The notes under the pieces: model-generated
Database searches by the model: none
Told to the model about the DNA's origin: nothing
What the model saw: only the letters and a program-made list of their open reading frames with translations
Program-made: the position numbers and the translations under genes
NCBI RefSeq assembly: GCF_026626665.1
Contig: NZ_JAPNKE010000002.1
Location: 1,165,204 to 1,229,203, forward strand
DNA from: Nannocystis pusilla
Lineage (GTDB): Bacteria; Myxococcota_A; Polyangia; Nannocystales; Nannocystaceae
Length of the DNA stretch: 64,000 nt
Direction: 5' to 3'
Shown here: one piece after another, positions 427-63,910 of the stretch
How the letters are laid out: each line of letters begins with the position of its first letter
How positions within the stretch are numbered: position 1 is the stretch's first letter

Positions 427-612
427 CGGCTGTCCTCCGGGATAGGTGCGAGGCGGACGGCCGACTGCGGGCCGTCGCCTCGCCGGCTGTAAATAAACTG
501 TCCTCGGGGACAGGTGCGAGGCGACCGGGACGTCGCCTCGCCGGGTTCTATCGAATGTCCTCCGGGACAGGTGCGGGCGAGCGGCCGACCTGGGATCGGC
601 GTCGCCTCGCCG
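427..612. repeat. Intergenic tandem repeat, 3 copies of about 58-60 bp, each with nested hairpins (CTGTCC-TCGG-GGACAG and CGAGGCG...CGCCTCG)
   Basis: Direct reading shows three near-identical units beginning at about 427, 485 and 546, each built around ctgtcctc(c)ggg(g)acaggtgcg(a/g)ggcg...gtcgcctcgccgg. Confidence 0.7.
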
Positions 613-6778: not shown

Positions 6779-8581
6779 ATGCGAACTTCCCTGTTGTTGT
6801 GTGCGGCGCTCGGCGCGGCGTGGACCCTGGCGATCCCGCAGACCGCCGAGGCGTGCGGCGGCGTGTTCTGCGACGGCGGCCTGCCGAACGCGATGCCCGT
6901 CAATCAGGACGGCGAGAACGTGCTCTTCGTCCTCAATCAGAACGAGGTCGAGGTCCACATCCAGATCAGCATCGACCCCAACACCAACGCGCAGAAGTTC
7001 GCGTGGCTGATCCCGATCGCCCAGATCCCCGAGTTCGAGGTCGGCTCGCAGCCGCTGTTCGACGCGCTGCTGAACTCGTCGGTGCCGACGTACCAGCTGC
7101 AGCAGACGTTCGAGGTGTGCGGCGAGGACGGCATCTCCGGCGGGATCACGACCAACGCGACGGGCACCGGCGCCCCCGGTGACTCGGCCGGCGGCAGCAC
7201 CAGCGGCGCCGACACCGACGGCGGCGAGGACCCGGTGGTGTTCAAGACCACCGCGGGCGCGTTCGAGATCGTGGTGCTGCAAGATCAGACGATCGAGCCG
7301 ATCAAGCAGTGGCTGATCGACAACGACTATCAGTGGATCGACGGCTCGGAGATGGTGCTGCAGCAGTACCTCGACGAGGGCCAGGTGATCGTCGCGCTCA
7401 AGCTGGCGGCCGGGTCGGACGGCGGCGACGTGCACCCGATCGTGCTGCGCTACCCGTCGAACGAGAACTGCTTCCCGCTGCGGCTGACGCGGTTCGCGTC
7501 GATCGAGAACATGGACATCCGCGTGTTCGTGCTCGGCAATAGCCGCGCGGCGCCGACCAACTACCGCCACGTCCTCGTCAATCCGCTGAAGATCGACTGG
7601 CTGCAATTCGCGGCCAACTACAAGGACGTCATCACCAAGGCGGTCGACGACCTCGAGGCCGAGGGCCTGGCGTTCGTGACCGAGTACGCCGGGCCGTCGA
7701 GCGTGGTCCAGCCGTTCGCGTTCAACTTCTACAGCACGTCGTGGAACGAGTCGGCGTTCGTCGGTCTGCCGCCCGAACAGGTCGTAAGCACGCTCAACGA
7801 CCAGGGCCTGGCGAACTGCTTCGGCGCCGACTTCTGCTTCTACAACCACCCGCTGGTGGAGAGCCTGCTCAACGACTTCTTGCCGGTGCCCGACGGCCTG
7901 TCGGCGGAGGAGTTCTACGCCAACCTGCCGGCCTACGCCGACCAGATCGACGCGATGGCGTGGGGCGACGGCAGCGCGTTCGCGCAGGCGCTCGACAGCC
8001 GGATCATCGCCCCCGGCGAGCGCGCGCAGGAGCTGATCGACACCTACCCGTACCTGACGCGCATGTACACGGTCATCTCGCCCAACGAGATGATCGCGGA
8101 CCCGATCTTCCACATCAACCCGGATCTGCCGGAGGTGCCGAGCTTCCGCTCGGCCACCGAGTACAACCTGTGCGACGGCAACAGCGTGGTCACGCTGCCC
8201 GACGAGCGCGAGATCTTCGTGCCGGGCGGCGGGCCGTGGCCGGACTTCATCGGCGAGATGTGGTGGGCCGAGGAGGTCCAGCAGGTCGCCCTCAAGGGCA
8301 AGCCGATGCACCTCGTCAACAACACCGCCGCGATCAACAAGAAGATCGAGGAGTGGAACCTGGCCCACGGCTGGCCCCGCTTCCCCGAGGGCGCGCCGAC
8401 GACCAGCGCCAGCGATACGGACACCGACAGCTCGGGCAGCAGCGGGCCCGACTCTGCCACCGGCGGCGGCGGGCAGAACGACGCCGCCGGCTGCGGCTGC
8501 CGCAGCGACGGCGCGCCGGGCGGGGGCCTGCTCGCGCTCGTGGGGCTCGGTCTGCTGGCCAGCCGGCGACGCCGTCGCTGA
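6779..8581 (+). CDS. Secreted protein with C-terminal MYXO-CTERM-like sorting domain (DUF2330-like)
   Basis: Signal peptide MRTSLLLCAALGAAWTLAIPQTAEA. The C-terminus reads ...AAGCGCRSDGAPGGGLLALVGLGLLASRRRRR, i.e. GCGC motif, hydrophobic span and Arg cluster. ATG at 6779 confirmed. Confidence 0.7.
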   Translation: MRTSLLLCAALGAAWTLAIPQTAEACGGVFCDGGLPNAMPVNQDGENVLFVLNQNEVEVHIQISIDPNTNAQKFAWLIPIAQIPEFEVGSQPLFDALLNSSVPTYQLQQTFEVCGEDGISGGITTNATGTGAPGDSAGGSTSGADTDGGEDPVVFKTTAGAFEIVVLQDQTIEPIKQWLIDNDYQWIDGSEMVLQQYLDEGQVIVALKLAAGSDGGDVHPIVLRYPSNENCFPLRLTRFASIENMDIRVFVLGNSRAAPTNYRHVLVNPLKIDWLQFAANYKDVITKAVDDLEAEGLAFVTEYAGPSSVVQPFAFNFYSTSWNESAFVGLPPEQVVSTLNDQGLANCFGADFCFYNHPLVESLLNDFLPVPDGLSAEEFYANLPAYADQIDAMAWGDGSAFAQALDSRIIAPGERAQELIDTYPYLTRMYTVISPNEMIADPIFHINPDLPEVPSFRSATEYNLCDGNSVVTLPDEREIFVPGGGPWPDFIGEMWWAEEVQQVALKGKPMHLVNNTAAINKKIEEWNLAHGWPRFPEGAPTTSASDTDTDSSGSSGPDSATGGGGQNDAAGCGCRSDGAPGGGLLALVGLGLLASRRRRR

Positions 8582-8595: not shown

Positions 8596-8700
8596 TCCGG
8601 GAGCCCGCGTTCGTCCTTCGATGATCCGAAGGGCATGTCCTCGCGGACATGCCCTTCAGACCATGGTCTGCGGGGCATGTCCGAGAGGACATGCCCGAAG
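8596..8700. repeat. Cluster of CATG-centred palindromic hairpins (REP/BIME-like) between convergent genes
   Basis: Reads ccttcgATGATCcgaagg, then GGGCATGTCC-tcgc-GGACATGCCC, ACCATGGTC, then GGGGCATGTCC-gagag-GACATGCCC. These are perfect 10-bp stems with 4-5 nt loops. Confidence 0.65.
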
Positions 8701-8708: not shown

Positions 8709-9530
8709 TCAGCCGATCGGGGCGTTGGCGATCCGGTGGACCAGCCAGAACAGGTTGGGGCCGTGGCGGTCGGGCAGCTCGCGCTTGACCGCGCGGAGCT
8801 GGTCGCACAGCTGCTCGAGGCCGCGGTCGAGGACGACGGCGCGGCGGGCCTCGAGGCGCTGGCCGACGCCGATCGGCTGCCAACTGGTGCCCCACGGGAT
8901 CGACCAGGTCAGCACGCGGTCGCCCGGGCGCAGGGCCTGCGACAGGTTGCTGTCGGTGAGGGTGACGGGCTCGTCGCGCAGCAGGTCCTTGCCGCGCACG
9001 CGCTGCTTGCCGGGGTTCACGTCGTCGACGGCGACCAGCAGGAGGCGCGCCTGCAGGCAGGCGTCGAGGGCGGCGCGCTGGCGGCCCTCGAGCGGCACGC
9101 CGGCGCTGGTGAACATGTCGACCAGGCGGACGCCCTTGGGGTCGCGGTAGCCGTACAGGCAGAACGTCTGGGCGGCGCGGCGCAGGTCGGCGTTGTTCTT
9201 CTCGGCCGGCGTGGCGCCGCCGAAGAAGCCGTTCATCACCTGGGTGACGAACGGACCGAAGCGCCGGGTGGCGAAGCTGCCCAGCATCGACTCGACCCGC
9301 TCGAAGTCGGCGCGCTCGTAGCGGCCGAACTTGGGGGTGAGCGGTCGCTCGTTCGTCAGCGCCGCCACGGGGGCAGGGTTGCGCGCGCGGGCGGCCTCCT
9401 GGGCTTGCGCGATCTCCTGCTCGGCGGTGAGGAACGGGCCGGTGCCGCGACGCTTGCGGCGGGAGTCCGAGCGGGGCGTCGACGCGGCGGGCGGGGCTAC
9501 GGTGCCGGGTTGTTCGGGTGTGTCGGTCAT
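8709..9530 (-). CDS. Hypothetical protein
   Basis: 273 aa from the ATG at 9530 (confirmed). No family recognised. The start overlaps the upstream gene stop (ATGA overlap), suggesting an operon with the lipoprotein genes. Confidence 0.45.
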   Translation of the reverse strand: MTDTPEQPGTVAPPAASTPRSDSRRKRRGTGPFLTAEQEIAQAQEAARARNPAPVAALTNERPLTPKFGRYERADFERVESMLGSFATRRFGPFVTQVMNGFFGGATPAEKNNADLRRAAQTFCLYGYRDPKGVRLVDMFTSAGVPLEGRQRAALDACLQARLLLVAVDDVNPGKQRVRGKDLLRDEPVTLTDSNLSQALRPGDRVLTWSIPWGTSWQPIGVGQRLEARRAVVLDRGLEQLCDQLRAVKRELPDRHGPNLFWLVHRIANAPIG

Positions 9531-14627: not shown

Positions 14628-15902
14628 ATGAAGCGGACCCTGCTCGGAACTTCTTTCCTCGCCACCCTCCTGCTCAGCGCCTCGTTTTACGCGGGCAAAC
14701 AGCCGGCCCTGGCCAACGCGGCTCCGGCCGCGGGCTCGGAGGTCGACCTCGGCGGCGGGTTCACGCTGCTGCGTCTCGCGGTCCCAGCCGACGGCCGCAT
14801 CGGCGACATCCTGCGCAAGAACGCGTTGATCTCGAGCGGCTTCGAGGTCATCGACCGGCGCAGCATCCCGGCCGCGCTGATCAAGGCCAACGACTTCGAC
14901 CAGAAGGGCTGGCAGGACATCGGCGCCCAGGCCGTGATCCTCGCCGACGAGGTCGGCGGTCAGTTCAAGTTCCGCCTGTTCGACATGGGCGCCGGCGGCA
15001 AGCCGGTGCTGTCGCGCGGCTACGCGGCCAACGATCCGCTCAAGGCCGCGAACCGGTTCATGAACGACGTGATCGAGCACTACACCAAGATCCCGGGTGT
15101 GTTCGGCTCGCGCATCGCGTTCGTCCGCACCAACCGCACGCCGACGGTCACGAAGAACGTGTTCACGGTCGAGATGAACGGCGAGTCGCCGGCCTCGATC
15201 ACCAACAACCGCTCGCTCAACATCTCGCCGTCGATCGGCCCCGGCGGGCAGGTGCTCTTCACCTCCTACGCCAAGCGCAACCCCGACCTGTGGATGAGCT
15301 CCGGCGGCTCGCTGAGCCGGATCAGCACCCAGCGCGGCCTCAACCTCGGCGGCGTGATGAGCCCCGACGGCTCGAGCATCGCGCTGACGCTGTCGAAGGA
15401 CGGCAACTCCGAGATCTACCTCATCGACACCGGCGGCACGATCAAGGCCCGCCTCACCAACAACGCGGCGATCGACGGCTCGCCGACGTGGAGCCCGGGC
15501 GCGAACCAGCTCGCGTTCGTGTCGAGCCGCTCGGGCGGCCCGCAGGTGTTCCGCATGGGCTCCAACGGGGCCGGCGCGACCCGCCTGACCAAGCAGGGCA
15601 GCTACAACCAGACGCCCGACTGGAACCCCGGCCAGGGCGCCCGCGCCAACCTCGTCGCCTACGCCGGCCGCGACAACTCCAACCGCTACGACATCTTCTC
15701 GATCGACGTCGGCAGCGGCAAGCTGGCGCGCTTGACCCAGAACCCGGGCCGCAACCTCGACCCGAGCTGGTCGCCCGACGGCCGCATGATCGCGTTCCAG
15801 TCGACCGTCGGCGGCATCGTCGTCGCCAACGACAAGGGCAACAACCAGCAGGTCATCGCCAAGGCCGGCACCACGCCCGACTGGGGCCCGCGCAGCGAGT
15901 AG
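14628..15902 (+). CDS. tolB: Tol-Pal system beta-propeller protein TolB
   Basis: Signal peptide MKRTLLGTSFLATLLLSASFYA, a TolB N-domain and WD-like beta-propeller repeats (SPDG.. / SWSPDG). ATG at 14628 confirmed. Confidence 0.85.
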   Translation: MKRTLLGTSFLATLLLSASFYAGKQPALANAAPAAGSEVDLGGGFTLLRLAVPADGRIGDILRKNALISSGFEVIDRRSIPAALIKANDFDQKGWQDIGAQAVILADEVGGQFKFRLFDMGAGGKPVLSRGYAANDPLKAANRFMNDVIEHYTKIPGVFGSRIAFVRTNRTPTVTKNVFTVEMNGESPASITNNRSLNISPSIGPGGQVLFTSYAKRNPDLWMSSGGSLSRISTQRGLNLGGVMSPDGSSIALTLSKDGNSEIYLIDTGGTIKARLTNNAAIDGSPTWSPGANQLAFVSSRSGGPQVFRMGSNGAGATRLTKQGSYNQTPDWNPGQGARANLVAYAGRDNSNRYDIFSIDVGSGKLARLTQNPGRNLDPSWSPDGRMIAFQSTVGGIVVANDKGNNQQVIAKAGTTPDWGPRSE

Positions 15903-15914
15903 GTCCTTCGGGAC

Positions 15915-16865
15915 ATGTCCCCAAACTCAGGTGAGCCTGCGACGCCGCGCGCCGCGGATCCGCGAGGATCCTGGCGCGCGGTCATCGATATCGGGACCAA
16001 CAGCGTCCTGCTGCTCGTCGCCCGCTGGCGCGGCCAGGACATCGAGATCGCGCTCGACCAGGCCACCATCACCCGCCTCGGCAAGGGCGTGGCGGCGACC
16101 GGCGTGCTGGCGCCCGAGTCGATCGCGCGCACGCTCGAAGTGCTGAAGCAGTACCGCGCGACCGCGGCGCAGTACGGGGCGACGCCGCTGGCGGTCACGA
16201 CCGAGGGCGTGCGCCTGGCCAAGAACCGCGACGAATTCCTGCGGCCCGCGGCCGAGGTGCTCGGCGCGCCGGTGCGGCTGCTCAGCGGCGCGGAGGAGGC
16301 CGAGCTGTCGTTCCGCTCGGTGGCGCAGGAGACCGGCTCGGCCGGGCCGCTGCGCGTGCTCGACATCGGCGGCGGCTCGACGGAGCTGGCCGTCGGCGAG
16401 GGCGAACAATTGGTCTCGTCGGTGTCGCACCCGATCGGCGCGGTGCGGCTGTACGAGCGCTTCGTGTCGCACGACCCGCCGGAGCCGGCCGAGGTGGCGC
16501 AGATCGAGCTCGAGGCGCTGGACACGTTCCGGCGCGGACAGCCGCTCGCGGCGTACCCGATCCTCACCGGGCTCGCGGGCACGGTCACGACCGCGGCGGC
16601 GATGCTGCGCGAGCTGCCGGCCTACGAGCGCGATGCGGTCGACGCCACGGCGTTCGCGTACGCCCAGGTCCGCGACCTCCGCGACCGCGCGGCGCAGGTG
16701 ACCGCCGCGGAGCGGTGCCGCCTGTGGCCCGCGCTCGACCCGGCGCGCGCCGACGTGATCGTCGCGGGGCTGACGATCCTGGTGGCGGCGATGCAGCACT
16801 GCGGGGCCACCAGCCTGGTCGTGCGCGACCGCGGCCTGCGCTACGCGCTGATCGAGAGGGATTGA
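15915..16865 (+). CDS. ppx: Ppx/GppA family phosphatase (exopolyphosphatase / guanosine pentaphosphate phosphohydrolase)
   Basis: AVIDIGTNSVLLLVA ASKHA-fold motif and LDIGGGSTEL. Stop overlaps the next start. Confidence 0.8.
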   Translation: MSPNSGEPATPRAADPRGSWRAVIDIGTNSVLLLVARWRGQDIEIALDQATITRLGKGVAATGVLAPESIARTLEVLKQYRATAAQYGATPLAVTTEGVRLAKNRDEFLRPAAEVLGAPVRLLSGAEEAELSFRSVAQETGSAGPLRVLDIGGGSTELAVGEGEQLVSSVSHPIGAVRLYERFVSHDPPEPAEVAQIELEALDTFRRGQPLAAYPILTGLAGTVTTAAAMLRELPAYERDAVDATAFAYAQVRDLRDRAAQVTAAERCRLWPALDPARADVIVAGLTILVAAMQHCGATSLVVRDRGLRYALIERD

Positions 16866-17690: not shown

Positions 17691-17781
17691 GCCGCGGCTG
17701 CGGGCGCCGCGGGTCGTCATGGCTTTGGGACATGTGTGAAGGGCCAGGTCCGAAGCGACAGGGTCGAAGGGGCAGGTCGAG

Positions 17782-19391
17782 GTGAGCGCGGGCGGCGGCG
17801 AGACCGGGGCGGAGCGGCGAGGTGAGGACCGGCCGGTGCTGCTGCGCGTCGAGGGGCTGACCATCGCGCGGCCCGACGGCGCGCCGCTGGTCGAGGCGCT
17901 GGCGCTGACGCTGCGGGCCGGCGAGACCGCGGCGGTGTTCGGCGCCAGCGGGGCCGGCAAGTCGACGCTGATGGCGGCGCTGCACGACGCGGACGGGCTG
18001 CGAGCGCGCGGGTTCGCGGTCCGGGCGGCCACGTTCACGGCGGCCGGCGGGGTCGGGATCGTGCCGCAGCGCGGGGCGCTGCTCGACCACCTGAGCGCCG
18101 CCGGTAACATCGCCCTGGCGCTGCGCAACGCCGAGCAGCCGGTGTCCGCCACTCCGCAGGAGGTCGAGCGCTGGATCGCCGCGCTCGACCTGCCGCGGCG
18201 CTGGAGCGACGAGGCGCAGGCGGTCGCGCACGTCAGCGGCGGCGAGGCGCAGCGCCTGGCCGTCGCGCGCACGCTGGCGGGCGGTCGGCGGATCTTGCTG
18301 CTCGACGAGCCCTCGGTCGGGCTCGATCCGCTCCGCGTCGATCGCCTGGCAGCGGCCCTGCGCGGGCAGATCGCCGGGCAGAGCGCGGCCGCGCTGGCGA
18401 TCACCCACGACCTCGAGTTCGCGGCCGGCTTCGCCGATCGCTTCCTCTACCTCGACGCGGCCGCGGGACGCCTGGTCGAGCTGCCGATCGCGCGCAGCGA
18501 GACGGCGGCGGCGACGGTCGCGGCGCTCGGGGCGGCGCTGCGCGAGCTGCTGGCCAAAGAGACAGGTCAGGCGGGCGGGCGATCGCGGCGGCGCCTGGGG
18601 GCGCGGCTGCGAGCTGTCCTCGGGGACATGTTGGCGCCGTTCGCGGTGCTGGTCCGGGCCCTCGCGGCCGCTCCGGCGGCGCTGGCCCGCCCGCGCGACT
18701 TCGCCGAGGTCGCGCGGGTGACCTTCGCGCAGGGCCTGTGGCGCCCGCTCGGCTTCATCGCCGCGGTGTCGCTGCTGGTCGGCTTCACCCTGCTGTACAT
18801 CTTCCACCGCGCGTTCTCGGGCGGCGGGGTGCCGGTGCGGCCGGACAAGATCTTCGCGCTGATCGGGTCGATGCACGTGCTGGCCCTGGCGCCGCCGCTG
18901 TCAGCGATCCTGTTCGCGGCGACGTCGGGCAGCGCGGTCGCGGCCTGGCTCGGCGGGATGTCGCTGACGCGCCAGACGGCGGCGCTGCGCGGGCTCGGGA
19001 TCGCCGAGGCGCGCTACTTGTGGCTGCCGGCGGTGCTCGGGCTGGCGCTGGCGTACGTGGTGCTGGCGGGGGTGTTCACCGGCGGGATGGTGCTCGGCGG
19101 GCTGCTCTACTTGAAGCTGCAGGTACCGGCGCTCGCCGACCCGTGGCTGGTCGTCACCGCCGACTTGCTCGATCCGCCGGCCGCGCGCGCCGTTCCGCGC
19201 GCGCGCTGGTGCTGGTCGCGCTCTACGCCGGCGGCATCGCGGCGGACGCGGTGGCCAAGGGGTCGAGCGACAAGGCCAGCGCCGACGCCGTGACCGCGGC
19301 GATGGTCCGCAGCGTGATGGCCTGTACGCTGTGGGTGGTGGCGCTCGAGCTGGCGTCGCTGGTCGTGCTGTATGGCGCTCGCGGAGGATAA
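17782..19391 (+). CDS. ABC transporter ATP-binding/permease fusion (MlaF/MlaE-like), C-terminal frameshift at about 19195
   Basis: Walker A GASGAGKST, signature VSGGEAQRL, Walker B LLLDEPSVGLD and ITHD. This is followed, with no stop, by a MlaE-like permease. Its last helix (LVLVALYAGGIAADAV...) continues in the adjacent frame. Confidence 0.6.
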
Positions 19392-21216
19392 GTGGCGGCT
19401 CGCGTCGATGGCTGGTCTGGCCGGCCTGGCGCTGGCGGGCGCGCTGCTGGCCGCCGGGCGCGGGGCGCTGATCGAGGCGGCGGCGGTGGAGCCGTTCCGC
19501 GTCGAGGTCGCAAGCCCGCACGCGCCGGCGGCCGACGGGCGCTGGGCGGGGCGCGTGGTCCCGCCGGAGCTGGCCGCGCGGGTGGTGGTGCGGGTCGACG
19601 GCGAGATCCGCGGCGGGCCTGAAGGACATGCGCAAAAGGACATGTCCGCGGCGCGCGATGATTCCGGAGGACATGCTCTCGAGGCCATGTCCAGAGTTGC
19701 CGAGGTTGACGGGCATGGCGCCGGGACGAACGGTCGCGGTCCTGAAGGACATGTTTACGAGAACATGTTCGAGGGGACACTTTCGGTCGCGCTGGGCGAC
19801 GCGCCGGGGCTGCGGCTGATCGAGGTCGAGCTGCCGCGGCAGGGGGGTGCGGAGGTGGCGACCGACGCGGCGCTGGTCGGGCCGTTCCGCGCGCGCTACG
19901 ACGACTCGCCGGGCTGCGGCGCGGGGGTGCGGGTGGCGGCGAGGGCGATCGATCGGCTGGTGCTGCCGCCGCTGCGCGACAAGCTGCTGGCGGCGGCGCC
20001 GTCGATCGGGCTGCTCGGGCCGGGGACGACGCTCGAGGAGGCGAGCGTGACGCTGCGGGGCGACGCGCTGTGGTTCCGCGTGGCGCTGGCCGGCGAGCAC
20101 CGGATCGCGGTGTCCGGCGCGCTGGAGGTGCGGGTGGCCGGGCCGCGCCAGCTCGGCGTGCGCCTGGCCTCGCTCGGGCCGGTCGAGTTCACGGGGACGT
20201 TGCGCACGCGAGCGACGCTCGGGGCGGCCGGGCTGGGGGCGATCGTGACGGGGCCGCTGGCGCCGCTCGGGGCGCTGGCCGGCTACGCGCTGGCCGACGG
20301 CTACATCGACCGACGCGCGCGGCAGGAGGTCGAGACGCAGCTGACGGCGGCCCTGGCGGTGGCCAGCGCGATCCCGCTGATCCCCGAGCGCGCCGAGCTG
20401 ATCGTCGGCGAGCCGCGCTCGCGGGCGACGCTGGCGTTCTGCGCGGTGGCCATCGAGTCGGGCGGGATCGCGGCGCACCTGTCCGTACGGCCAGATAAAC
20501 CTGACCCGAAGACCAGCCAGGAGGCGAGCCGGGTGCGCACGCGGCTGGCGGCGATCCCGGGGCCGGCGCGGCACGGGCTCGCGCTGCCGCCGCTGCGGCC
20601 GGTGGCGCCGACGGCCGACGCGGAGGTCGAGCTGAGCCTCGACACGGTCGACGCGCTGCTCGACGCGTGGACCGCCAACGGGCTGCTCGGCGACCTGATG
20701 GGGCGGGCGCAGTGGGTCGAGCGGGTCGACGAGGCGCTCGGCGAGTGGACGACGCTCGGCCTGGCGGAGATCGAGGTGCGGCTGCCGCCGTCGCTGTCCC
20801 CGGGGACAGGTGACGGCTGGGCGCTGACCGTGGCGGGGCTGCGGCTGGGGCTGACCGGCAGCGAGGGCGAGGACCCCGGGGAGGTGCTGGTGGCCGGACG
20901 CGGGTTCGTGCGCCCGCACTACGACGCGCGGCGCGGGCGGCTGGCGCTGGCGGGGACGATCGACCGCCTGCGCCTGTCGTGCGCCCGTGCAGGGGCGCTG
21001 TGGCCGTGCTTCGCCGCGCTGCTCGAGATGGGCGACGTCGAGGCGAGGCTCGATGCGCTGCTGGCTCCCGGCGCCGCGGGGCTGCCGGGGATCGAGGTGC
21101 GGGCGCTGCTGCGCGACGGCACGCGAGCGCTGCGCGACGGGGGGCTGGAGCTGGCCGACCTGGCGATCAGCTACCCGCAGCCGGGCGTGCTGCGCGTGGC
21201 GGCCGAGGTGCGCTGA
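19372..21216 (+). CDS. Hypothetical membrane-anchored protein. The reading frame spans an embedded repeat cluster; the true start may be downstream at about 19762.
   Basis: 614-aa ORF with an N-terminal hydrophobic helix. Residues about 83-143 are encoded by GGACATG-type repeat units. The remainder is Ala/Leu-rich with no recognised domain. Confidence 0.35.
   Translation: MALAEDKWRLASMAGLAGLALAGALLAAGRGALIEAAAVEPFRVEVASPHAPAADGRWAGRVVPPELAARVVVRVDGEIRGGPEGHAQKDMSAARDDSGGHALEAMSRVAEVDGHGAGTNGRGPEGHVYENMFEGTLSVALGDAPGLRLIEVELPRQGGAEVATDAALVGPFRARYDDSPGCGAGVRVAARAIDRLVLPPLRDKLLAAAPSIGLLGPGTTLEEASVTLRGDALWFRVALAGEHRIAVSGALEVRVAGPRQLGVRLASLGPVEFTGTLRTRATLGAAGLGAIVTGPLAPLGALAGYALADGYIDRRARQEVETQLTAALAVASAIPLIPERAELIVGEPRSRATLAFCAVAIESGGIAAHLSVRPDKPDPKTSQEASRVRTRLAAIPGPARHGLALPPLRPVAPTADAEVELSLDTVDALLDAWTANGLLGDLMGRAQWVERVDEALGEWTTLGLAEIEVRLPPSLSPGTGDGWALTVAGLRLGLTGSEGEDPGEVLVAGRGFVRPHYDARRGRLALAGTIDRLRLSCARAGALWPCFAALLEMGDVEARLDALLAPGAAGLPGIEVRALLRDGTRALRDGGLELADLAISYPQPGVLRVAAEVR
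19615..19800. repeat. CATG-palindrome repeat cluster (at least 8 units) lying in-frame inside the ORF 19372..21216
   Basis: Units gaaggacatgcgcaaaaggacatgtcc, ggaggacatgctctcgaggccatgtcc, gggcatggc, gaaggacatgtttacgagaacatgttcgagggg. Confidence 0.65.
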
Positions 21217-21264: not shown

Positions 21265-21325
21265 GCGCCGAGACATGCCTGCCCGAACGGACATGTTCTA
21301 TCGAGCATGCTCGTTCGGACATCCG
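21265..21325. repeat. CATG-palindrome units between convergent genes
   Basis: gagacatgcctgcccgaacggacatgttctatcgagcatgctcgttcggacatcc, with the inverted pair cgaacggacatg...catgctcgttcg. Confidence 0.55.
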
Positions 21326-22226: not shown

Positions 22227-22292
22227 GCCTGTCCCCGGGGACAGGTGACGGGAGATGTCCTTCGAGACATCTCGGAGGCGGGGAGCCCGTGC
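22227..22292. repeat. Palindrome CTGTCCCCGGGGACAG plus an inverted pair GGAGATGTCCttcgaGACATCTCG
   Basis: Read directly. The 23-mer ctgtccccggggacaggtgacgg is identical to a copy at 20794-20816 inside a CDS. Confidence 0.6.
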
Positions 22293-22303
22293 GGGCGTCG
22301 AGT

Positions 22304-43837: not shown

Positions 43838-44662
43838 ATGCTCCACTCGGAAGACCCGCACTACCACCGCGCCGCGGAACACCTGCGTGAACGCCTCGAG
43901 GGCGCCAAGATCGACTGGGTCGTGGTGTCCGGCTCCGGCTTCGTCGGCATGGCCGGCGACGGGCCCGACGGGCTCGGCATGACGGTGGAGGGCTCGATCC
44001 CGCTGCGCGGCCTCGGCCTGCCGGTGCCCACGGTCGCCGGTCACGGCACGGCGCTGGTGTTCGGCACCGTCGGCAAGCTGCGCGTGTGCGTGCAGACCGG
44101 CCGGATCCACCCGTACGAGGGCCACCCGATCAACGTCGTCACCGCGCCGCTGTGGGCCATGCTGGCCAACGGCGCCCGCGGGGTGTGCCTGACCTGCGCC
44201 GTCGGCGGGCTCGACCCGGCGCTGCGCACCGGCCAGGTGGTGCTGCTCAAGGACCAGATGAACCTGTTCGGCCCGACCCCGCTGGTCGGCGCCCGCTTCA
44301 TCGACATGAGCCAGCTCTACAGCCCGCACCTGCGCGCGCGCCTGCAGGCGATCGACCCCGGGCTCGGCGCGAGCAGCCTGGCCGAGGTGGTCTACGCCCA
44401 CGCCCGCGGCCCGCAGTACGAGACGCCGGCCGAGACGGCGGCCCTGCGCTCGCTCGGCGGCCAGGTGGTCGGCATGTCGACCACCTACGAGGCGATCCTC
44501 GCCGCCGCCCACGGCGCGGCGGTCTGCGGCGTCGGCGTGGTCACCAACGCGGCCAGCCAGGTCGGCCTGAACCACGAAGAGGTCCAGGAGCGCACGCGCG
44601 CGGCCAAGCCCCAGGTGGCCAGCCTGCTGCGCGGGCTGCTGGTCCAGCCGCCTGGCCCTTGA
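43838..44662 (+). CDS. Purine nucleoside phosphorylase family protein (PNP/MTAP type)
   Basis: VVSGSGF...GHG, VGMSTTYEA and a PNP-I phosphate-binding pattern. Confidence 0.75.
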   Translation: MLHSEDPHYHRAAEHLRERLEGAKIDWVVVSGSGFVGMAGDGPDGLGMTVEGSIPLRGLGLPVPTVAGHGTALVFGTVGKLRVCVQTGRIHPYEGHPINVVTAPLWAMLANGARGVCLTCAVGGLDPALRTGQVVLLKDQMNLFGPTPLVGARFIDMSQLYSPHLRARLQAIDPGLGASSLAEVVYAHARGPQYETPAETAALRSLGGQVVGMSTTYEAILAAAHGAAVCGVGVVTNAASQVGLNHEEVQERTRAAKPQVASLLRGLLVQPPGP

Positions 44663-44770
44663 GGCATGTCCTGAAGGGCATGCCCGAAAGGGCATGTCGA
44701 TACGGCCATGCTCGAAAGGGCATGCTCGAAAGGGCCTGTGCCGAAGGACAGGCTGTGCCCGCGGAGGGGC
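44650..44770. repeat. CATG-palindrome cluster arranged as 5 direct 14-15-nt units (GGGCATGYYCGAAAG)
   Basis: catgtcctgaag gGGCATGCCCgaaag GGCATGTCgatac GGCCATGCTCgaaag GGCATGCTCgaaag GGCCTGTGCCgaaGGACAGGCTGTGCC. Confidence 0.6.
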
Positions 44771-46626: not shown

Positions 46627-49578
<2,952 letters not shown>

Positions 49579-49584
49579 AGTTGT

Positions 49585-49672
49585 CCTGAGAGACATGCAG
49601 GTTCGGACATGCCCGGACGGGCATGTCGTACGCGACATGCCCGCGAGGACATGTCCTTGAGGCTAGGGCCGG
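49585..49672. repeat. CATG-palindrome cluster between convergent genes
   Basis: gacatgcaggttcGGACATGCCCggacGGGCATGTCgtacgcGACATGCCCgcgagGACATGTCCttgagg. Confidence 0.65.
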
Positions 49673-51179: not shown

Positions 51180-51370
51180 GAGCGGCGAGAGTTCGGCGCG
51201 GCAGCAGAGACTCTGTCCGAAGGGACATGTACGGAGGGGCGCGGCGCGGGTGGTCGAGCGATGTTGCGGGCCGAGGCAGATGCCCATGTACGGAGGGGGG
51301 CGCGGCGCGGGTGGTCGAGCGATGAGGCAGATGCCGCGGGAGAGTGAACGGACAGGTCGTAAAGGACAGG
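51180..51370. repeat. Repeat region: 36-bp direct repeat x2 (gtacggagggg(g)cgcggcgcgggtggtcgagcgatg) flanked by GGACATGT / GGACAGGTC units
   Basis: Copies at about 51227-51262 and 51288-51325, plus gaagggacatgtacgg and gaacggacaggtcgtaaaggacaggtc. Confidence 0.55.
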
Positions 51371-51402
51371 TCTGCCGAGACCGGGGGCACCGAGCGACGC
51401 GC

Positions 51403-52605
51403 TCAGGAGCGGCACAGCGCGGACACCCGCGCGGCCAGGGCGGAGGCGGGCCAGCGGGCCAGGAACGCGGCGGCTTCGCGGCGGGCGCGGTCGTGTTCGC
51501 CGAGGCGGCAGCGGGCCTCGATCGCGGCGGCGGCGGTCTCCTGGGCGAACACGCCGGCGGGGAAGCGCCGCTGGTGGCGGGCGACCAGCTCGAGGGTGGT
51601 GCGGTCGTCGGCGGCGAGCAGGGCGGCGCGGATCGACTCGACGAGGGTGAGCTCGGCGGCCAGCGAGGGTTCTTCGGCGCGAGGGATCGAGCGTCGCGCG
51701 GGCGCGGGGGGAGCGGCCGGGGCGGAGTCGGGCGGGATCGGGGTGGCGGCTGCGAGCGCGACCGATTGCGGTTGCGATGGCGACTGCACGGGCGCGGCCT
51801 CGTGGGCCGGGGCGACGACCGACGGTGGCGGCTCGGGCGGTGAAGGGTGGCCGAACGCCAGCACCGCGAAGAGCCCGGCGCCGGCGACCGAGAGGCCGAC
51901 GACCGGGCTGCCGCCGGCGAGCGCGGCCGGGGTCGTGACATGACTCATCGACCATGTCTTTGCGAGCATGTCCGAGACGACAGCCGGATCGCGCGCGGCG
52001 GCCAGGCGCCACGGCGGCGGCCCGGGCGGACCGACCACGACCAGCGCGGCGAGCACGTGGGCGCCCTGGCGCGGCCGGACCCGGCGATCGCGGGCGTCGA
52101 GGCGGCGGACCATGCGGTCGAGCTCGCGGCGAGCGGCGCGCAGGCGCGAGTAGACGGTGTTGAGGTTGACGCCGAGCTCGGCGGCGATCTCGGGGGCCTG
52201 CCACTGCTCGAGCTCGGTCATGACGAAGACGACGGCCTGGTCGCGGTCGAGGCCGTCGAGGAAGCCCTGGAGGATCGCGGCGGCCTCGGCCTGCTCGACG
52301 GGGGCCCGGGCCGCGGGGGCGAGGACGTCGGCCTCGCTCAGGGCGCAGCGGCGCGGCTCCTCGCGCGCGGCGCTGCGCCGGTAACGGCTGGCGACGCGCC
52401 GCGCGATCTCGAACAACCAGGTGCGCAGCGCGGCGCGACCGGCGAACTCGGGCAGGCGGCGGTAGACGACCAGGAAGGTGTCCTGGACGGCGTCGTCGAC
52501 CCGCGCCGGCTCGACGCCGAGGTGCCGGACGGTGCGCCAGACGAAGCCGTAGTTCGCGCGGTAGACGGCGGCGAAGTCGGGGAGGGCTTCCTGGGGGAGC
52601 GGCAC
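51403..52605 (-). CDS. ECF (sigma-70 family) RNA polymerase sigma factor with a fused C-terminal TM / anti-sigma-like extension
   Basis: Region 2 (DAVQDTFLVVYRRL) and region 4 (ELGVNLNTVYSRLRAARREL) lie in the first ~175 aa. With no stop, a TM helix (SPVVGLSVAGAGLFAVLAFG), a Pro-rich linker and a ~90-aa helical domain follow. GTG start. Confidence 0.7.
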   Translation of the reverse strand: MPLPQEALPDFAAVYRANYGFVWRTVRHLGVEPARVDDAVQDTFLVVYRRLPEFAGRAALRTWLFEIARRVASRYRRSAAREEPRRCALSEADVLAPAARAPVEQAEAAAILQGFLDGLDRDQAVVFVMTELEQWQAPEIAAELGVNLNTVYSRLRAARRELDRMVRRLDARDRRVRPRQGAHVLAALVVVGPPGPPPWRLAAARDPAVVSDMLAKTWSMSHVTTPAALAGGSPVVGLSVAGAGLFAVLAFGHPSPPEPPPSVVAPAHEAAPVQSPSQPQSVALAAATPIPPDSAPAAPPAPARRSIPRAEEPSLAAELTLVESIRAALLAADDRTTLELVARHQRRFPAGVFAQETAAAAIEARCRLGEHDRARREAAAFLARWPASALAARVSALCRS

Positions 52606-54344: not shown

Positions 54345-54425
54345 GGCGCGCTGTCCTATCAGACATGTCCTTTTATAATTGTCTGGAAGGACATGTCGGA
54401 GGGAGCATGTCCGAAAGGACCGATA
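54345..54425. repeat. CATG-palindrome cluster with an embedded AT-rich segment (TTTTATAATTG)
   Basis: ctgtcctatcaGACATGTCCttttataattgtctggaaGGACATGTCggagggaGCATGTCCgaaaGGACC. Confidence 0.6.
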
Positions 54426-55489: not shown

Positions 55490-55550
55490 CATCGGGTATG
55501 GTGCGGAGGACATGATGAAAGAGCATGTCCTCGGGGACATGTGGCGGGTG
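55490..55550. repeat. CATG-palindrome units
   Basis: ggaGGACATGatgaaagaGCATGTCCtcggGGACATGTggcgg. Confidence 0.55.
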
Positions 55551-58847: not shown

Positions 58848-58925
58848 GAGGGCATGCTCGTACGAGCATGTCCTCGAGGGCATGAAGGATGGGGCATGTC
58901 GGATGGGACATGCGCGAGAGGTCAG
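58846..58925. repeat. CATG-palindrome cluster between convergent genes
   Basis: gaGGGCATGCTCgtacGAGCATGTCCtcgaGGGCATGaaggatgGGGCATGTCggatgGGACATGCgcgagagg. Confidence 0.65.
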
Positions 58926-59710: not shown

Positions 59711-59897
59711 GCGAGGAGGCTGAGGAGGAGGCGAGAGGCGAGGGGCGGGCCGGGGAACGCGGGCAGAGAGGAGGAGGCGAGAGGCGAGGCTGGAGAAGGC
59801 GGGGAGGAGGGAGGCCCGACCTGCAGCGGCGCGGCCGGGACAGGTGTCCTTAGGGACTTGTGCGAAGAGACAGGTGCGAAAGGTCAGGGCGGAGAGG
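59711..59897. repeat. Intra-operon spacer: about 110-nt polypurine (GA-rich) tract with an internal direct repeat, then five GGnCAGGTC-cgaa(n)g hairpin-type units
   Basis: gaggaggaggcgagaggcgagg occurs twice. Then GACAGGTGtccttagGGACTTGTGcgaagaGACAGGTGcgaaaGGTCAGGgcggagaGGTCAGGTCcgaacGGGCAGGTCcgaagGGTCAG. Confidence 0.65.
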
Positions 59898-60703
59898 TCA
59901 GGTCCGAACGGGCAGGTCCGAAGGGTCAGCCGGGGCGGCGGCGCGCAGGCGGGCGCGGACGTCGGCGGCGATCGCCGCGAACTCGGGGCTGCCGATCAGG
60001 GCGGCGCGGCGCGGGCGCGGCAGGGCGATCGGGATGTCGGCGACCACGCGGCCGGGGCGGCCGGAGAGGACGACGACGCGGTCGCCGAGCAGGACCGCCT
60101 CGGCGACGCTGTGGGTGACGGCCAGGGCGGTGAAGCGGTCGCGCTCCCACAGGCGCAGCAGCTCGTCGTTGAGGCGCTCGCGCGTGAGCTCGTCGAGGGC
60201 GCCGAACGGCTCGTCGAGCAGGAGCAGCTCGGGCCGGGTGACGAGGGCGCGGGCCAGTGAGGCGCGCATCTTCATGCCGCCCGAGAGCGCGGTCGGGGGG
60301 GCGGCGGCGAACTCCGACAGGCCGACGAGCGCGAGCGCGGCGTCGGCGGCGGTGTTCTGCTCGGCGATCGGGGCGCGCGCGAGCTCGAGCGGGAGCCGGA
60401 CGTTGGCGTGCAGGCTGCGCCACGGGAGCAGGGTCGGGTCCTGAAACACGAAGGCGACCGCGCGGCGCGCCGGGCCCGCTCGGGGGCCTCGCCGGCGACG
60501 GTGAGGGTGCCCGCGCTGGCGGGCGCGAGGCCGGCCGCGACGCGCAGGAAGGTCGACTTGCCGCAGCCCGAGGGGCCGATGAGGGCGAGCAGCTCGCCGC
60601 GGCGGACGACGAGGTCGAGGCCGCTCAGGGCCTGCACGCCGCCCGCGAACTGCACGCCGAGGCCGCGGGCCTCGATGTGCGGGGCTGGGACCGGCTCGGT
60701 CAC
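59898..60703 (-). CDS. ABC transporter ATP-binding protein (SsuB/TauB-like), frameshift at about 60465
   Basis: The N-terminal frame has Walker A GPSGCGKST. The C-terminal frame has the Q-loop FQDPTLLPW, signature LSGGMKMR, Walker B LLLDEPFGALD and H-loop VTHS. Confidence 0.7.
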
Positions 60704-60802: not shown

Positions 60803-61588
60803 TCAGGCCTTGCGGGGGCGCGAGCGGCGGGAGCGGGCGGGCTTGGCCGGGGGCGCAGGGGGCTCGGGCTCGGGCTCGTCTGCCTCTTCGGGCATGTCCT
60901 CGAGGTCCGGTGCTTCCGAACCTGTCGCTTCGGACATGTCCTCGGAGCCCTCCTCGGCCTCGGCCTCGGCTTCGGCCTCGGGCGGGTCGGACGGGGCCGC
61001 CTCGAGGCCGCTGTTGCGGAGGGTGCGGGGCGGCAGCAGCTCGGGCTCGCTGACGACCTTCTTGGCCAGGAAGATGGCGGCGTCGATCTGGGAGAAGCTG
61101 CGGGCGCGGTAGAACTGGAGCGCGCGCTTGTTGTTGGCGGCGACCTCGAGGACGAGGTGGGTGCAGCCGCGCACGCGGGCGAGGTGCTCGAGCTGCTCGA
61201 TGACGAAGCTGCCGATCCCGCGGCCCTGGAAGTCGGGGTGGATGGCGATCTCCTCGACGAACAGCGGGCGCATGTCCCGGCTCTCGAAGTAGCGCTCGTT
61301 GATCCAATTGTCGGAGCCGATGACCTCGTAGGCGCACTCGGCGTAGCCGACGATCACCGGGGCGTCGCCCTCGTGGATCTCGAACAGCAGCTGCTCGATG
61401 CCCTCCTCCTCGTAGATCTCGAGGAAGCGGGTCTTGGTGCGGGGGCGCTGGTACTCGACGGTCTCGCGGTTGACCGAGCGGAACACGCGCTTGAGGAACT
61501 CCCACACCTTGTTGAGGTCGCGGCGGTGGATCCGGCGGACACGGATGGTCGGCTCCGTGACGGCGGGCGCGGGCTTGCGGGAGGCCAC
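60803..61588 (-). CDS. GNAT family N-acetyltransferase with an acidic C-terminal tail partly encoded by CATG-palindrome units
   Basis: GNAT core (IAIHPDFQGRGIGSFVI, NKRALQFYRARSF). The tail reads ...EEGSEDMSEATGSEAPDLEDMPEEADEPEPEPPAPPAKPARSRRSRPRKA. The DNA at 60885-60955 reads GGGCATGTCCtcgaggtccggtgcttccgaacctgtcgcttcGGACATGTCC. Confidence 0.7.
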   Translation of the reverse strand: MASRKPAPAVTEPTIRVRRIHRRDLNKVWEFLKRVFRSVNRETVEYQRPRTKTRFLEIYEEEGIEQLLFEIHEGDAPVIVGYAECAYEVIGSDNWINERYFESRDMRPLFVEEIAIHPDFQGRGIGSFVIEQLEHLARVRGCTHLVLEVAANNKRALQFYRARSFSQIDAAIFLAKKVVSEPELLPPRTLRNSGLEAAPSDPPEAEAEAEAEEGSEDMSEATGSEAPDLEDMPEEADEPEPEPPAPPAKPARSRRSRPRKA

Positions 61589-63689: not shown

Positions 63690-63910
63690 GGCACAGGGCC
63701 CGCTCGTCCTCAGCATGAGGCCCGGTCCGACGGCGGACGGTGCGGCATGTCTCATTGGACATGTCATCAAGAACATGCTCGATAGAGCATGCGCTCATGA
63801 GCATGTTCCTCGAGTCATGGCCTGGAGGGCAGGGGCGTCCGGGGCCGGCGCGCCTCATGAGCATGTTCTTCGAGTCAGGGCCGGGAGGGCATGTGCGTCC
63901 GGGGCCCGGC
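63690..63910. repeat. CATG-palindrome cluster plus an about 62-bp direct repeat x2 (ctcatgagcatgttc(c/t)tcgagtca(t/g)ggcc(t/g)ggagggca(g/t)g(g/t)gcgtccggggcc(g/c)ggcgcg)
   Basis: gGCATGTCtcattGGACATGTCatcaaGAACATGCTCgataGAGCATGCgctcatGAGCATGTTC... read directly. Confidence 0.6.

What the first reader, a model, noticed from the sequence alone, without database searches (positions are those of the whole stretch)
8596..8700. A dispersed family of CATG-centred palindromic hairpins (REP/BIME-like) at 18 or more loci, first clear cluster
The same 10-bp palindromic core recurs throughout the window: GGACATGTCC, GGGCATGTCC, GGACATGCCC (the last two are reverse complements of each other), GAGCATGCTC, GAACATGTTC, ACCATGGTC, and GGnCAGGTC or CTGTCC...GGACAG variants. 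It is usually followed by a 4-5 nt loop (GAAAG, GAGAG, TCGC). Units come in groups of 2-8 with alternating orientation, so each pair forms a perfect hairpin, as in enterobacterial REP/BIME elements. Clusters seen: 427-612, 8596-8700, 15903-15914, 17700-17780, 19615-19800, 21265-21325, 22227-22292, 44650-44770, 49585-49672, 51180-51370, 51930-51990, 53200-53720, 54345-54425, 55490-55550, 58846-58925, 59800-59897, 60885-60955 and 63690-63910. Most sit at gene 3' ends, often between convergent genes, where REP-like elements act as terminators or mRNA stabilisers. A few single copies lie inside ORFs (18610, 20794, 47000, 47590, 47925). Because each unit contains ATG, and reads Gly-His-Val, Asp-Met-Ser or Thr-Cys-Pro depending on frame, they seed many spurious ORFs in the track (e.g. 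MSSRTCP..., MPFRPWSAGHVREDMP...). I do not recognise this element from described families.
Basis: seen in the sequence. Interest (0 to 1): 0.75.

Follow-up and report, generated by a model that had tools for sequence, protein, structure and literature searches.

The report
Hairpin repeat arrays at gene ends
In the soil bacterium Nannocystis, a 10-base palindrome (GGRCATGYCC) plus a 4-base spacer is repeated head-to-tail every 14 bases just after the stop codons of many genes, most often between genes that face each other; it probably folds into hairpins that end or protect transcripts, and it looks like an undescribed family of the known REP-like kind of bacterial repeat.

Summary
RRRCATGYYY occurs 34 times against 2.3 expected, and CATG-N10-CATG 29 times against 0.5. 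The smallest recurring module is the hairpin TGYCC-N4-GGRCA, and CATG forms where two modules abut.

The window comes from Nannocystis pusilla. Arrays lie in non-coding DNA a median of 15 nt from stop codons. About 58% lie between convergent genes and almost none between divergent genes. Six other Nannocystis genomes carry arrays at the same gene ends. CATG and the period never change there, while arms, spacers and unit number do.

The arrays fold very stably on both strands (z -4 to -8.7) and have no U-tract, no Rfam match and no GTAG/CGTC tag. About 1.4 Mb from other Myxococcota has none. Arm covariation is weak, so a sequence-specific reader or generator of CATG units remains possible.

Best reading: a lineage-specific REP-like 3'-end hairpin array acting as terminator, insulator or mRNA stabiliser and growing by 14-nt slippage. 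RAYT association could not be tested.

The parts
8629..8698 (.). Array of 5 CATG units between convergent genes: DUF2330/MYXO-CTERM-like gene (stop 8579-8581, +) and a conserved gene on the minus strand (stop 8709-8711)
   Evidence: Orthologous arrays of 3-5 units occur in L213, L130 and L171. RNA fold -63.5 (+) and -60.6 (-) kcal/mol, z about -8.5
19622..19780 (.). Three short arrays (2, 3 and 2 units) in one non-coding segment between co-directional + genes
21271..21320 (.). Short array (2 in-register CATG units plus degenerate ones) between the convergent genes ending at 21216 (+) and 21335 (-, HxlR-type)
44660..44757 (+). Array of 5 CATG plus 2 degenerate (CCTG, CAGG) units. The first unit overlaps the TGA of the purine-nucleoside phosphorylase gene
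   Evidence: The same position holds an array in 7 Nannocystis genomes, and the CATG columns are invariant there
49577..49660 (.). Half unit plus 5 units between the SNF2 helicase stop (49578) and the stop of a convergent minus-strand gene 6 nt beyond the array
   Evidence: Present at the SNF2 3' end in all 7 Nannocystis genomes
51934..51976 (.). Array of 3 units in a non-coding segment between minus-strand genes
54347..54420 (.). Array (3 CATG units plus one decayed unit) ending about 14 nt from the stop (CTA, 54427) of the minus-strand NMT1-type gene
55505..55546 (.). Short array (2-3 units) next to a 26-bp tandem repeat
58848..58917 (.). Array of 5 units that fills the gap between the convergent stops at 58847 (+) and 58922 (-)
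60874..60943 (.). Two CATG units 42 nt apart with degenerate units between them
63741..63900 (.). Array of 6 units, followed by a 60-bp duplication that carries further units
427..612 (.). Isolated hairpin modules CTGTCC-N4-GGA(C/T)AG, three copies inside 57-bp repeats, between convergent genes (3-425 + and 621-1436 -)
15903..15920 (+). Single module GTCC-TTCG-GGACATGTCC starting immediately after the TAG stop at 15900-15902
17700..17780 (+). Two CATG units followed by a CAGG-type 14-nt array
22227..22296 (.). Two isolated hairpin modules (CCTGTCC-CCGG-GGACAGG and GATGTCC-TTCG-AGACATC) between minus-strand genes
51207..51375 (.). Isolated modules and degenerate CAGG units in a long non-coding segment
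53190..53723 (.). One module at 53192-53214, then a 48-bp repeat (x6) with one module (GGATGTCC-GTGG-GGACAGGTC) in each copy
59846..59929 (+). CAGG-type 14-nt array (GGRCAGGYCC + N4). It is strand-asymmetric and reads CCTG on the minus strand, directly after the minus-strand stop (TCA, 59898-59900)
   Evidence: L129 carries a similar array

Best explanation
This is a lineage-specific, REP-like family of hairpin repeats in Nannocystis. The basic module is a 14-nt hairpin, TGYCC-N4-GGRCA. Modules abut head-to-tail, which creates the palindrome GGRCA|TGYCC, so CATG recurs every 14 nt. Arrays sit directly after stop codons.

Proposed mechanism (inferred, not shown): the array is transcribed as the 3' end of the upstream gene, or of both genes when they converge. 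There it folds into one or several very stable G+C-rich hairpins. These hairpins stop or slow read-through and/or block 3' exonucleases. Because the unit is a palindrome, one array serves both strands.

Arrays change length by slippage or duplication of 14-nt units.

Shown: the anatomy, the position, conservation at orthologous sites, and folding potential. Inferred: transcription of the array, the terminator or stabiliser effect, and how the family spread.
For: - Period and enrichment.
- Hairpin module with a strict 4-nt loop: 22 copies against 0-2 for other loop sizes. Terminal units of arrays are half units that keep the arm facing the neighbouring unit.
- Position: arrays lie in non-coding DNA. 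The median distance to a stop codon is 15 nt, and 70% are within 25 nt.
- Gene context, independent set: 38 convergent, 22 co-directional, 6 divergent among 66 resolved arrays. In co-directional cases the array sits next to the upstream stop, not the downstream start.
- Gene context, window: about 5 of 7 convergent gaps and 0 of 7 divergent gaps carry elements (my reading).
- Folding: -43 to -63 kcal/mol, z -4 to -8.7, on both strands.
- Conservation: arrays occur at the same gene ends in 7 Nannocystis genomes. CATG columns and the period are invariant, while arms, spacers and unit number (4-7) vary and the rest of the spacer is unalignable.
- PNP array: every variable stem position varies G-C to G-U on the sense strand, and 82-90% of cells are paired.
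- Growth by duplication: adjacent spacers are identical in 14% of cases against 0.6% background. Spacers that flank a unit pair are exact reverse complements in 8.3% against 0.9%.
- Known REPs share the 3'-end and convergent bias and act as terminator/stabiliser (PMC3733652; bioRxiv 10.64898/2026.03.23.713779).
Against: - Covariation between arms of neighbouring units is weak (z about 2 at the loop-closing pairs, not significant elsewhere). On the orthologue alignment it is no better than shuffles.
- Structure alone would allow other palindromic cores, yet CATG is essentially invariant. Something sequence-specific is therefore also acting.
- There is no U-tract. Canonical terminator-like sites are not enriched: 5 against 2.5 expected.
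- Pooled over co-directional arrays, G.U pairs on the sense strand are not significantly commoner than A.C pairs (42 against 33).
- Odd unit numbers are as common as even ones.
- CAGG-type arrays do not fold on the C-rich strand (z +1.6).
- No expression data were available.
Confidence: 0.55

Rival explanations
1. The arrays are binding sites in double-stranded DNA. A dimeric protein reads each GGRCA/TGYCC pair. With one site every 14 bp, three units span four helical turns. The protein would act at transcription-unit ends as a roadblock or insulator, or as a topoisomerase or nucleoid-protein site, as gyrase does at E. coli BIMEs.
For: - CATG and the 14-bp spacing are invariant across species, while the arms vary without compensation. 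The R and Y positions are statistically independent, as expected for independently read half-sites.
- Overall the two strands are symmetric.
- The spacing is strictly 4 nt.
- Convergent gaps are where positive supercoils build up (established knowledge).
Against: - No candidate protein is known.
- Isolated copies are mostly in the hairpin arrangement TGYCC-N4-GGRCA rather than the palindrome GGRCATGYCC (22 against 8), although the former is also a legitimate 14-bp palindromic site.
- Stems extend into flanking spacers more often than chance.
- CAGG-type arrays break the palindrome in every unit.
Confidence: 0.2
2. The repeats are selfish, non-autonomous mobile DNA of the REP type. A RAYT-like (HUH/Y1) or other enzyme recognises the hairpin with CATG at its foot and spreads it. 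The repeats survive at gene 3' ends only because insertions there do no harm, and they have no function of their own.
For: - One specific sequence occurs at very many loci (about 1 array per 5 kb here).
- A conserved tetranucleotide sits next to a hairpin foot, as in GTAG-tagged REPs (PMC3733652).
- Single modules lie inside ORFs at indel positions.
- The family is restricted to one lineage.
- Some arrays are present in one species and absent in another near the FG-GAP gene.
Against: - Arrays stay at the same gene ends across 7 species while the surrounding spacer DNA has diverged beyond alignment. CATG and the period are kept. This indicates purifying selection or continual regeneration at each site.
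- There is no GTAG/CGTC tag.
- No HUH...YxxNPV motif occurs in 642 kb. This is weak evidence, because a RAYT is usually single-copy.
- Length changes come in 14-nt steps with identical neighbouring spacers, which fits local slippage rather than transposition.
Confidence: 0.15
3. The arrays are periodic loading sites for a termination factor. In the CCTG/CAGG-type arrays the transcript is C-rich, unstructured and periodic, and could serve as a Rho-binding (rut-like) site. The CATG arrays would be the structured relatives.
For: - The minus-strand RNA of 59840-59935 is unstructured (z +1.6) and C-rich.
- The L252 orthologue of the L125 array is CCTG-type on the sense strand, directly after the stop codon.
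- Rho prefers C-rich, unstructured RNA with regularly spaced C residues (my recollection of the RhoTermPredict criteria; not checked here).
Against: - Most arrays are CATG-type and strongly structured, which should hinder Rho binding.
- The CAGG array at 17745-17778 lies between + strand genes and reads G-rich on the + strand, so orientation relative to the upstream gene does not look consistent.
- Only a handful of examples exist.
Confidence: 0.05
4. The motif is a DNA-uptake signal, or a compositional artefact of a 72% G+C genome.
For: In Neisseria, 10-nt uptake sequences occur as inverted pairs in terminators (PMC1852404, title and abstract only).
Against: - Dinucleotide-preserving shuffles give 0.5-2.3 hits against 29-34 observed.
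- About 1.4 Mb of other high-G+C Myxococcota loci show no 14-nt signal.
- The motif is almost absent from coding sequence, unlike uptake sequences, and it occurs as tandem arrays.
Confidence: 0.03

Closest known systems
REP / BIME elements of Enterobacteria and Pseudomonas (GTAG- and CGTC-tagged palindromic repeats; PMC3733652, PMC2817692)
   Same: - Short G+C-rich palindromic hairpins in high copy number.
- Extragenic, mostly downstream of genes, between convergent or co-directional genes.
- Often clustered and reiterated in tandem, with occasional copies inside genes.
- Lineage-specific sequence.
- In E. coli they act as partial terminators and mRNA stabilisers (bioRxiv 10.64898/2026.03.23.713779).
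   Different: - The unit is 14 nt (a 5-bp arm pair plus a 4-nt loop), not 20-40 nt.
- Units abut with no linker in a strict period. BIMEs alternate orientation with variable linkers.
- There is no GTAG or CGTC tag. The invariant tetranucleotide is CATG, and it is shared between neighbouring units.
- Arrays begin at or within a few nt of stop codons.
- RAYT association is untested.
Thauera GTAG-1 REPs with 5-bp stems, found through the tandem-repeat database (mentioned in PMC3733652)
   Same: Very short stems, and arrangement in tandem so that they register as tandem repeats.
   Different: They carry the GTAG tag. I could not compare sequences or spacing, because only the mention in that paper was read.
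Intrinsic and bidirectional terminators between convergent genes
   Same: Stable hairpin(s) directly after stop codons. One symmetric element can serve both convergent genes.
   Different: There is no U- or A-tract. The same sequence is used at many loci. Several concatenated hairpins occur with alternative pairing registers.
Neisseria DUS / Haemophilus USS inverted pairs in terminators
   Same: A specific 10-nt word, paired so as to form hairpins downstream of genes.
   Different: Uptake sequences are non-palindromic, common inside genes and not in tandem arrays. Competence of Nannocystis is unknown to me.
Arrays of short direct repeats in intergenic DNA of unknown role, for example the TAACTGA heptamers of Beggiatoaceae (PMC4679880)
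   Same: Short-period arrays of 2 to many units, confined to intergenic DNA and lineage-restricted.
   Different: Those are non-palindromic 7-nt direct repeats lying upstream of genes. I read only the abstract.

Membership tests
REP / BIME | Short palindromic unit able to form a stem-loop (20-40 bp in the published definition) | tested here: inconclusive
   Stem-loops are clearly possible. However, the module is 14 nt, or 24-28 nt if two units are counted as one hairpin. That is at or below the published size range (PMC3733652).
REP / BIME | High copy number, extragenic, mostly downstream of genes and between convergent or co-directional genes | tested here: met
   - 12 CATG arrays plus about 20 single modules in 64 kb.
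- 3-6 arrays per 20.8-kb orthologous locus.
- Context: 38 convergent, 22 co-directional, 6 divergent.
- The genome-wide number was not counted.
REP / BIME | Conserved GTAG or CGTC tetranucleotide at one end of the palindrome | tested here: not met
   The unit consensus is GGRCATGYCC plus a variable N4. No GTAG or CGTC occurs at the hairpin foot. The invariant tetranucleotide is CATG.
REP / BIME | A cognate RAYT (Y1/HUH transposase) gene in the genome, typically flanked by the REPs | not testable with these tools
   - Only 64 kb of the 11.9-Mb genome plus fetched loci could be read.
- A motif scan for HUH...YxxNPV found nothing in 642 kb.
REP / BIME | BIME architecture: REPs in alternating orientation separated by defined linkers | tested here: not met
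   The register is a strict 14-bp head-to-tail period. Units are themselves palindromic, so orientation is undefined. Only some neighbouring units are exact reverse complements.
Intrinsic (Rho-independent) terminator | G+C-rich hairpin followed by a U-tract | tested here: not met
   Hairpins are present. The terminator scan found 5 sites against 2.5 expected in 20 kb, and only one of them (55541-55524) lies in an array.
DNA uptake sequences (DUS/USS) | A strand-specific 9-12-nt word spread through coding and non-coding DNA | tested here: not met
   The motif is palindromic, arranged in tandem and nearly confined to non-coding segments.
MITE | Terminal inverted repeats around an internal segment, with target-site duplication | tested here: not met
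   No unit larger than the 14-nt module recurs. Array length varies in 14-nt steps.
Any Rfam family | Match to a curated covariance model | tested here: not met
   The gathering-threshold scan of the whole window found only a tRNA. The E<=1 scan of 44-64 kb gave one unrelated weak hit.

The most novel reading that the evidence does not exclude
The CATG units are not just stems. A dedicated sequence-specific factor reads them, either a protein binding the duplex palindromes or the hairpin RNA, or an enzyme that regenerates them. Nannocystis would then mark and enforce the ends of transcription units with a coded, periodic signal (14 nt per unit, three units per four DNA turns). That would be a sequence-specific termination or insulation system unlike Rho-dependent or intrinsic termination. 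It would explain why CATG and the spacing are invariant across species while the arms mutate without compensation.
Probability: 0.15. Interest if true: 0.8.

Novelty: new variant of a known kind. Interest (0 to 1): 0.5.

Why it matters
- How transcription units end in very high-G+C bacteria with few U-tract terminators is poorly understood. Myxobacteria, which have 10-15 Mb genomes, are an example.
- A repeat that sits exactly at stop codons, fills most convergent gaps and is kept at the same gene ends across a genus is a ready-made handle on that question. It could also supply compact bidirectional terminators or insulators for engineering natural-product producers.
- The units seed spurious ORFs and inflate gene calls. 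At orthologous sites, Pfam-less ORFs are annotated over module-bearing repeats.
- The unit number differs between strains, so the arrays could be used for strain typing.
- The gap between an invariant core and non-covarying arms is a concrete puzzle about what maintains such repeats.

Tried and rejected
1. Pairwise covariation. I compared positions 1-3 and 8-10 within units, between neighbouring units, and between units two apart. Only weak signals appeared (z at most about 2).
2. Pair counts on the 7-species PNP alignment in both hairpin registers. Pairing is high (82-90%) but no better than column shuffles.
3. G.U against A.C on the sense strand of co-directional arrays. The result was 42 against 33, not significant. 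The clean G.U-only pattern of the PNP array does not generalise.
4. Rfam at gathering and at E<=1: nothing. Consensus terminator scan: no enrichment.
5. Viral contig scan with 5 x CATG at 14 nt. All 42 hits are ordinary 7- or 14-nt tandem repeats or AT-rich iterons, so they are irrelevant.
6. Genome-collection scan with the SNF2 protein.
7. Medium-G+C metagenome hits with GACATGTC-N6. They have AT-rich spacers and are not next to ORF ends. I judged them a different, operator-like thing.
8. A home-made HMM gene caller missed many genes, so I did not use it. Gene context rests on GC3 frame analysis, Pfam hits and the gene calls returned with the orthologous loci.
9. RAYT motif scan: negative but uninformative.
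10. Literature searches for myxobacterial or Nannocystis REP-like repeats: nothing relevant.

Full report
**1. The observation**

The stretch 8631-8696 reads GGGCATGTCC tcgc GGACATGCCC ttca GACCATGGTC tgcg GGGCATGTCC gaga GGACATGCCC. The motif is far more frequent than chance in this 72% G+C window:
- RRRCATGYYY occurs 34 times against 2.34 +/- 1.55 in dinucleotide-preserving shuffles.
- CATG-N10-CATG occurs 29 times against 0.51 +/- 0.59.
- GYCC-N4-GGRC occurs 49 times against 18.7 +/- 4.3.

**2. Anatomy**

Distances between CATG tetramers peak at 14 (29 pairs), 28 (20) and 42 (16), with about 1-2 at neighbouring distances. When the clusters are written in a 14-nt register, they are head-to-tail arrays. 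The window has 2-6 units per array, and metagenome contigs have up to 11. The unit is GGRCATGYCC plus a 4-nt spacer of almost free sequence.

The smallest recurring piece is the hairpin TGYCC-N4-GGRCA:
- GTCC-Nx-GGAC occurs 22 times for x=4 and 0-2 times for every other x.
- The bare palindrome GGAC-N2-GTCC occurs 8 times.
- Array ends are typically half units that keep the arm facing the array, for example TGA-CCTGTCC-cgcc-GGACATG.

CATG is therefore best seen as the junction of two abutting hairpin modules.

Other arrangements of the same module also occur:
- single modules;
- modules embedded in 48- to 57-bp repeats;
- strand-asymmetric 14-nt arrays in which every CATG is replaced by CAGG (CCTG on the other strand).

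**3. Organism and distribution**

Five window proteins are exact matches to Nannocystis pusilla proteins on an 11.9-Mb contig.

Eighty loci from other bacteria, about 1.4 Mb around SNF2 homologues, show 0-2 CATG pairs at 14 nt each, against 29 in the window. They include Sorangium, Byssovorax, Labilithrix, Enhygromyxa, a Nannocystaceae MAG, and Kofleriaceae, Sandaracinus and Myxococcaceae MAGs.

A metagenome scan for two full units plus a third CATG reached its 120-locus limit. About half the hits are contigs of 70-77% G+C with the same arrays. One of them, L125, has an 11-unit array. The gene next to it has as its only named relative a 'Nannocystis sp.' MAG protein at 67% identity. Relatives at 67-78% identity carry CATG- or CCTG-type arrays at the same gene end.

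The family is therefore characteristic of Nannocystis and close relatives. The remaining metagenome and viral hits are plain tandem repeats or AT-spaced GACATGTC sites of a different character.

**4. Position relative to genes**

Every CATG array in the window lies in a segment without GC3 codon periodicity. Flanking genes are real: Pfam hits include DUF2330, HxlR, PNP_UDP_1, SNF2/Helicase_C and BPD_transp_1.

I took 82 independent arrays from the window plus the high-G+C metagenome contigs:
- The distance from an array edge to the nearest in-frame stop has a median of 15 nt, and 70% are within 25 nt.
- Of 66 arrays with both sides resolved, 38 lie between convergent genes, 22 between co-directional genes and 6 between apparently divergent genes. 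Some of the last group are probably miscalls.
- In co-directional cases the array sits next to the upstream stop, while the distance to the downstream gene varies widely.

In the window itself about 5 of 7 convergent gaps carry arrays or modules. The two without are 28326-28389 and 40186-40299, and the latter has an ordinary hairpin plus a T-rich tail. No divergent gap carries an array (my reading).

**5. Conservation**

Orthologous loci were obtained for N. punicea, N. exedens, N. bainbridge, N. radixulma, Nannocystis sp. RBIL2 and a second N. pusilla.

*PNP gene.* In all seven genomes the purine-nucleoside phosphorylase gene ends in cTTGAGG-CATG, so the first unit overlaps the stop codon. 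An array of 4-7 units follows and ends in ...CAGGCTG. The rest of the spacer ranges from 148 to 540 nt and cannot be aligned.

*SNF2 gene.* It is followed in all seven genomes by an array of about five units. Two further arrays are also positionally conserved.

*What is invariant.* In alignments the (G)CATG columns are invariant, while arms and spacers vary. Mean column identity is 65-68%.

*The flagged array.* The same holds for the array in the finding. Metagenome contigs L213 (syntenic over 11 kb, 74-86% identity), L130 and L171 each have 3-5 units after the orthologous DUF2330 gene, with different unit sequences and offsets.

*Mode of change.* Neighbouring units share an identical spacer in 14% of cases against 0.6% for units of different arrays. 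Unit numbers differ between species in steps of one unit. Both point to growth and shrinkage by 14-nt slippage or duplication.

The motif persists at fixed gene ends while the surrounding non-coding DNA has randomised. This argues for selection, or continual regeneration, at each site. It argues against recent selfish insertions.

**6. Structure or sequence?**

As RNA the arrays fold into long nested or serial hairpins on both strands: -43 to -63.5 kcal/mol, z -4 to -8.7, with none of 200 shuffles as stable.

Support for hairpins:
- the hairpin-type arrangement of isolated modules;
- the half units at array ends;
- spacers that flank a unit pair are exact reverse complements in 8.3% of cases against 0.9%;
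- in the PNP array every variable stem position toggles G-C/G-U on the sense strand, with 82-90% of cells paired.

Against a purely structural constraint:
- covariation between arms is weak (z about 2 for the two loop-proximal pairs, not significant otherwise);
- the orthologue alignment does not beat column shuffles;
- G.U is not significantly favoured over A.C on the sense strand when co-directional arrays are pooled (42 against 33);
- odd unit numbers are common;
- no array uses a palindromic core other than CATG.

Something sequence-specific therefore acts as well. It could be common descent with copying, or a factor that reads the unit.

**7. Comparison with known elements**

There is no Rfam match. 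There is no U-tract, and terminator-like sites number 5 against 2.5 expected.

Published REPs are 20-40-bp palindromes with a GTAG or CGTC tag. They are often clustered, lie mostly downstream of genes between convergent or co-directional ORFs, and sometimes sit inside genes (PMC3733652). In E. coli one was shown to act as a partly Rho-dependent terminator and an mRNA stabiliser (bioRxiv 10.64898/2026.03.23.713779).

The present family shares the location, the hairpin, the clustering, the lineage specificity and the occasional copies inside genes. It differs in four ways:
- a 14-nt unit;
- a strict zero-linker period;
- a CATG junction instead of a GTAG/CGTC tag;
- a start at the stop codon.

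The defining association with a RAYT transposase could not be tested. A motif scan of 642 kb was negative, but such genes are usually single-copy. I therefore describe it as working like a REP without filing it as a member of the REP/RAYT system. Searches of the held literature found no description of it.

**8. Verdict**

The finding is real, non-random and biologically organised. The most likely reading (0.55) is a Nannocystis-specific, REP-like, bidirectional 3'-end hairpin array that limits read-through and/or protects mRNA 3' ends and evolves by 14-nt slippage.

Rivals:
- a DNA-level protein-binding array at transcription-unit boundaries (0.2);
- purely selfish REP-like DNA (0.15);
- a periodic Rho-loading role for the C-rich CCTG variants (0.05);
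- uptake signal or artefact (0.03).

Novelty: a new variant of a known kind. Interest is moderate (0.5). It would be higher if the invariant CATG turns out to be read by a dedicated factor.

Noticed in passing
window 55570-55730: Nearly perfect tandem repeat: a 26-bp unit (GCGGGGCGGAGGCTCGCAGGCTCGCG) x 6.2 with 96% matches, in non-coding DNA right beside the array at 55505-55546.
   Followed up: no
window 53435-53723; L248 about 19845-19947, L250 about 19655-19808, L251 about 19495-19603: A 48-bp repeat (x6) with one hairpin module in each copy. The orthologous places in other Nannocystis genomes have modules spaced 48-54 bp. There they are covered by annotated minus-strand ORFs of 388-482 aa with no Pfam hit, which may be spurious.
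   Followed up: partly
window 958, 18616, 45890, 47010, 47925: Single modules inside long ORFs. Four of them (958, 18616, 45890, 47925) coincide with local loss of GC3 periodicity. In the SNF2 gene the modules at 47010 and 47925 fall at indels relative to the orthologue L021. This suggests in-frame insertions into coding sequence.
   Followed up: partly
window 17782-19293: One ORF joins an ABC ATPase domain and an MlaE permease domain. A module (GTCC-TCGG-GGACATG) sits at the junction, and its ATG could be the permease start codon.
   Followed up: no
window 17745-17778 and 59860-59929; L129 about 2190-2300; L252 11525-11660: 14-nt arrays in which every core is CAGG (CCTG on the other strand). 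They are strand-asymmetric, and the C-rich strand is unstructured as RNA (z +1.6). In two cases the C-rich strand is the sense strand directly after a stop codon, which is reminiscent of a Rho-binding site.
   Followed up: partly
metagenome loci L124, L127, L136, L150, L151, L188, L195, L196, L210, L237: Contigs of 56-66% G+C carry GACATGTC palindromes, also at a 14-bp period but with AT-rich spacers, and where an ORF end lay within 100 nt it was 46-93 nt away. They look like operator sites of an unrelated system that shares the core.
   Followed up: partly
window 33964-33975 and 34011-34082: A single module GTCC-TTCG-GGAC lies 36 nt upstream of the only tRNA gene in the window.
   Followed up: no
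window 8480-8581: The DUF2330 protein ends in GCGC...GGLLALVGLGLLASRRRRR. This Cys-rich, hydrophobic, Arg-rich tail is of the MYXO-CTERM type (my recollection of that sorting signal). It is conserved in L213, L130 and L171.
   Followed up: no
window 1-64000: GC skew is positive across nearly the whole window, and the cumulative skew rises steadily. The window therefore seems to lie within one replichore with + as the G-rich strand. Intergenic DNA in 50-60 kb is strikingly G-rich on +.
   Followed up: no
window 40186-40299: The convergent gap after the S6-S18-L9 ribosomal protein genes has no CATG units. Instead it has an ordinary G+C hairpin followed by a T-rich tail, so canonical-looking terminators coexist with the arrays.
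   Followed up: no
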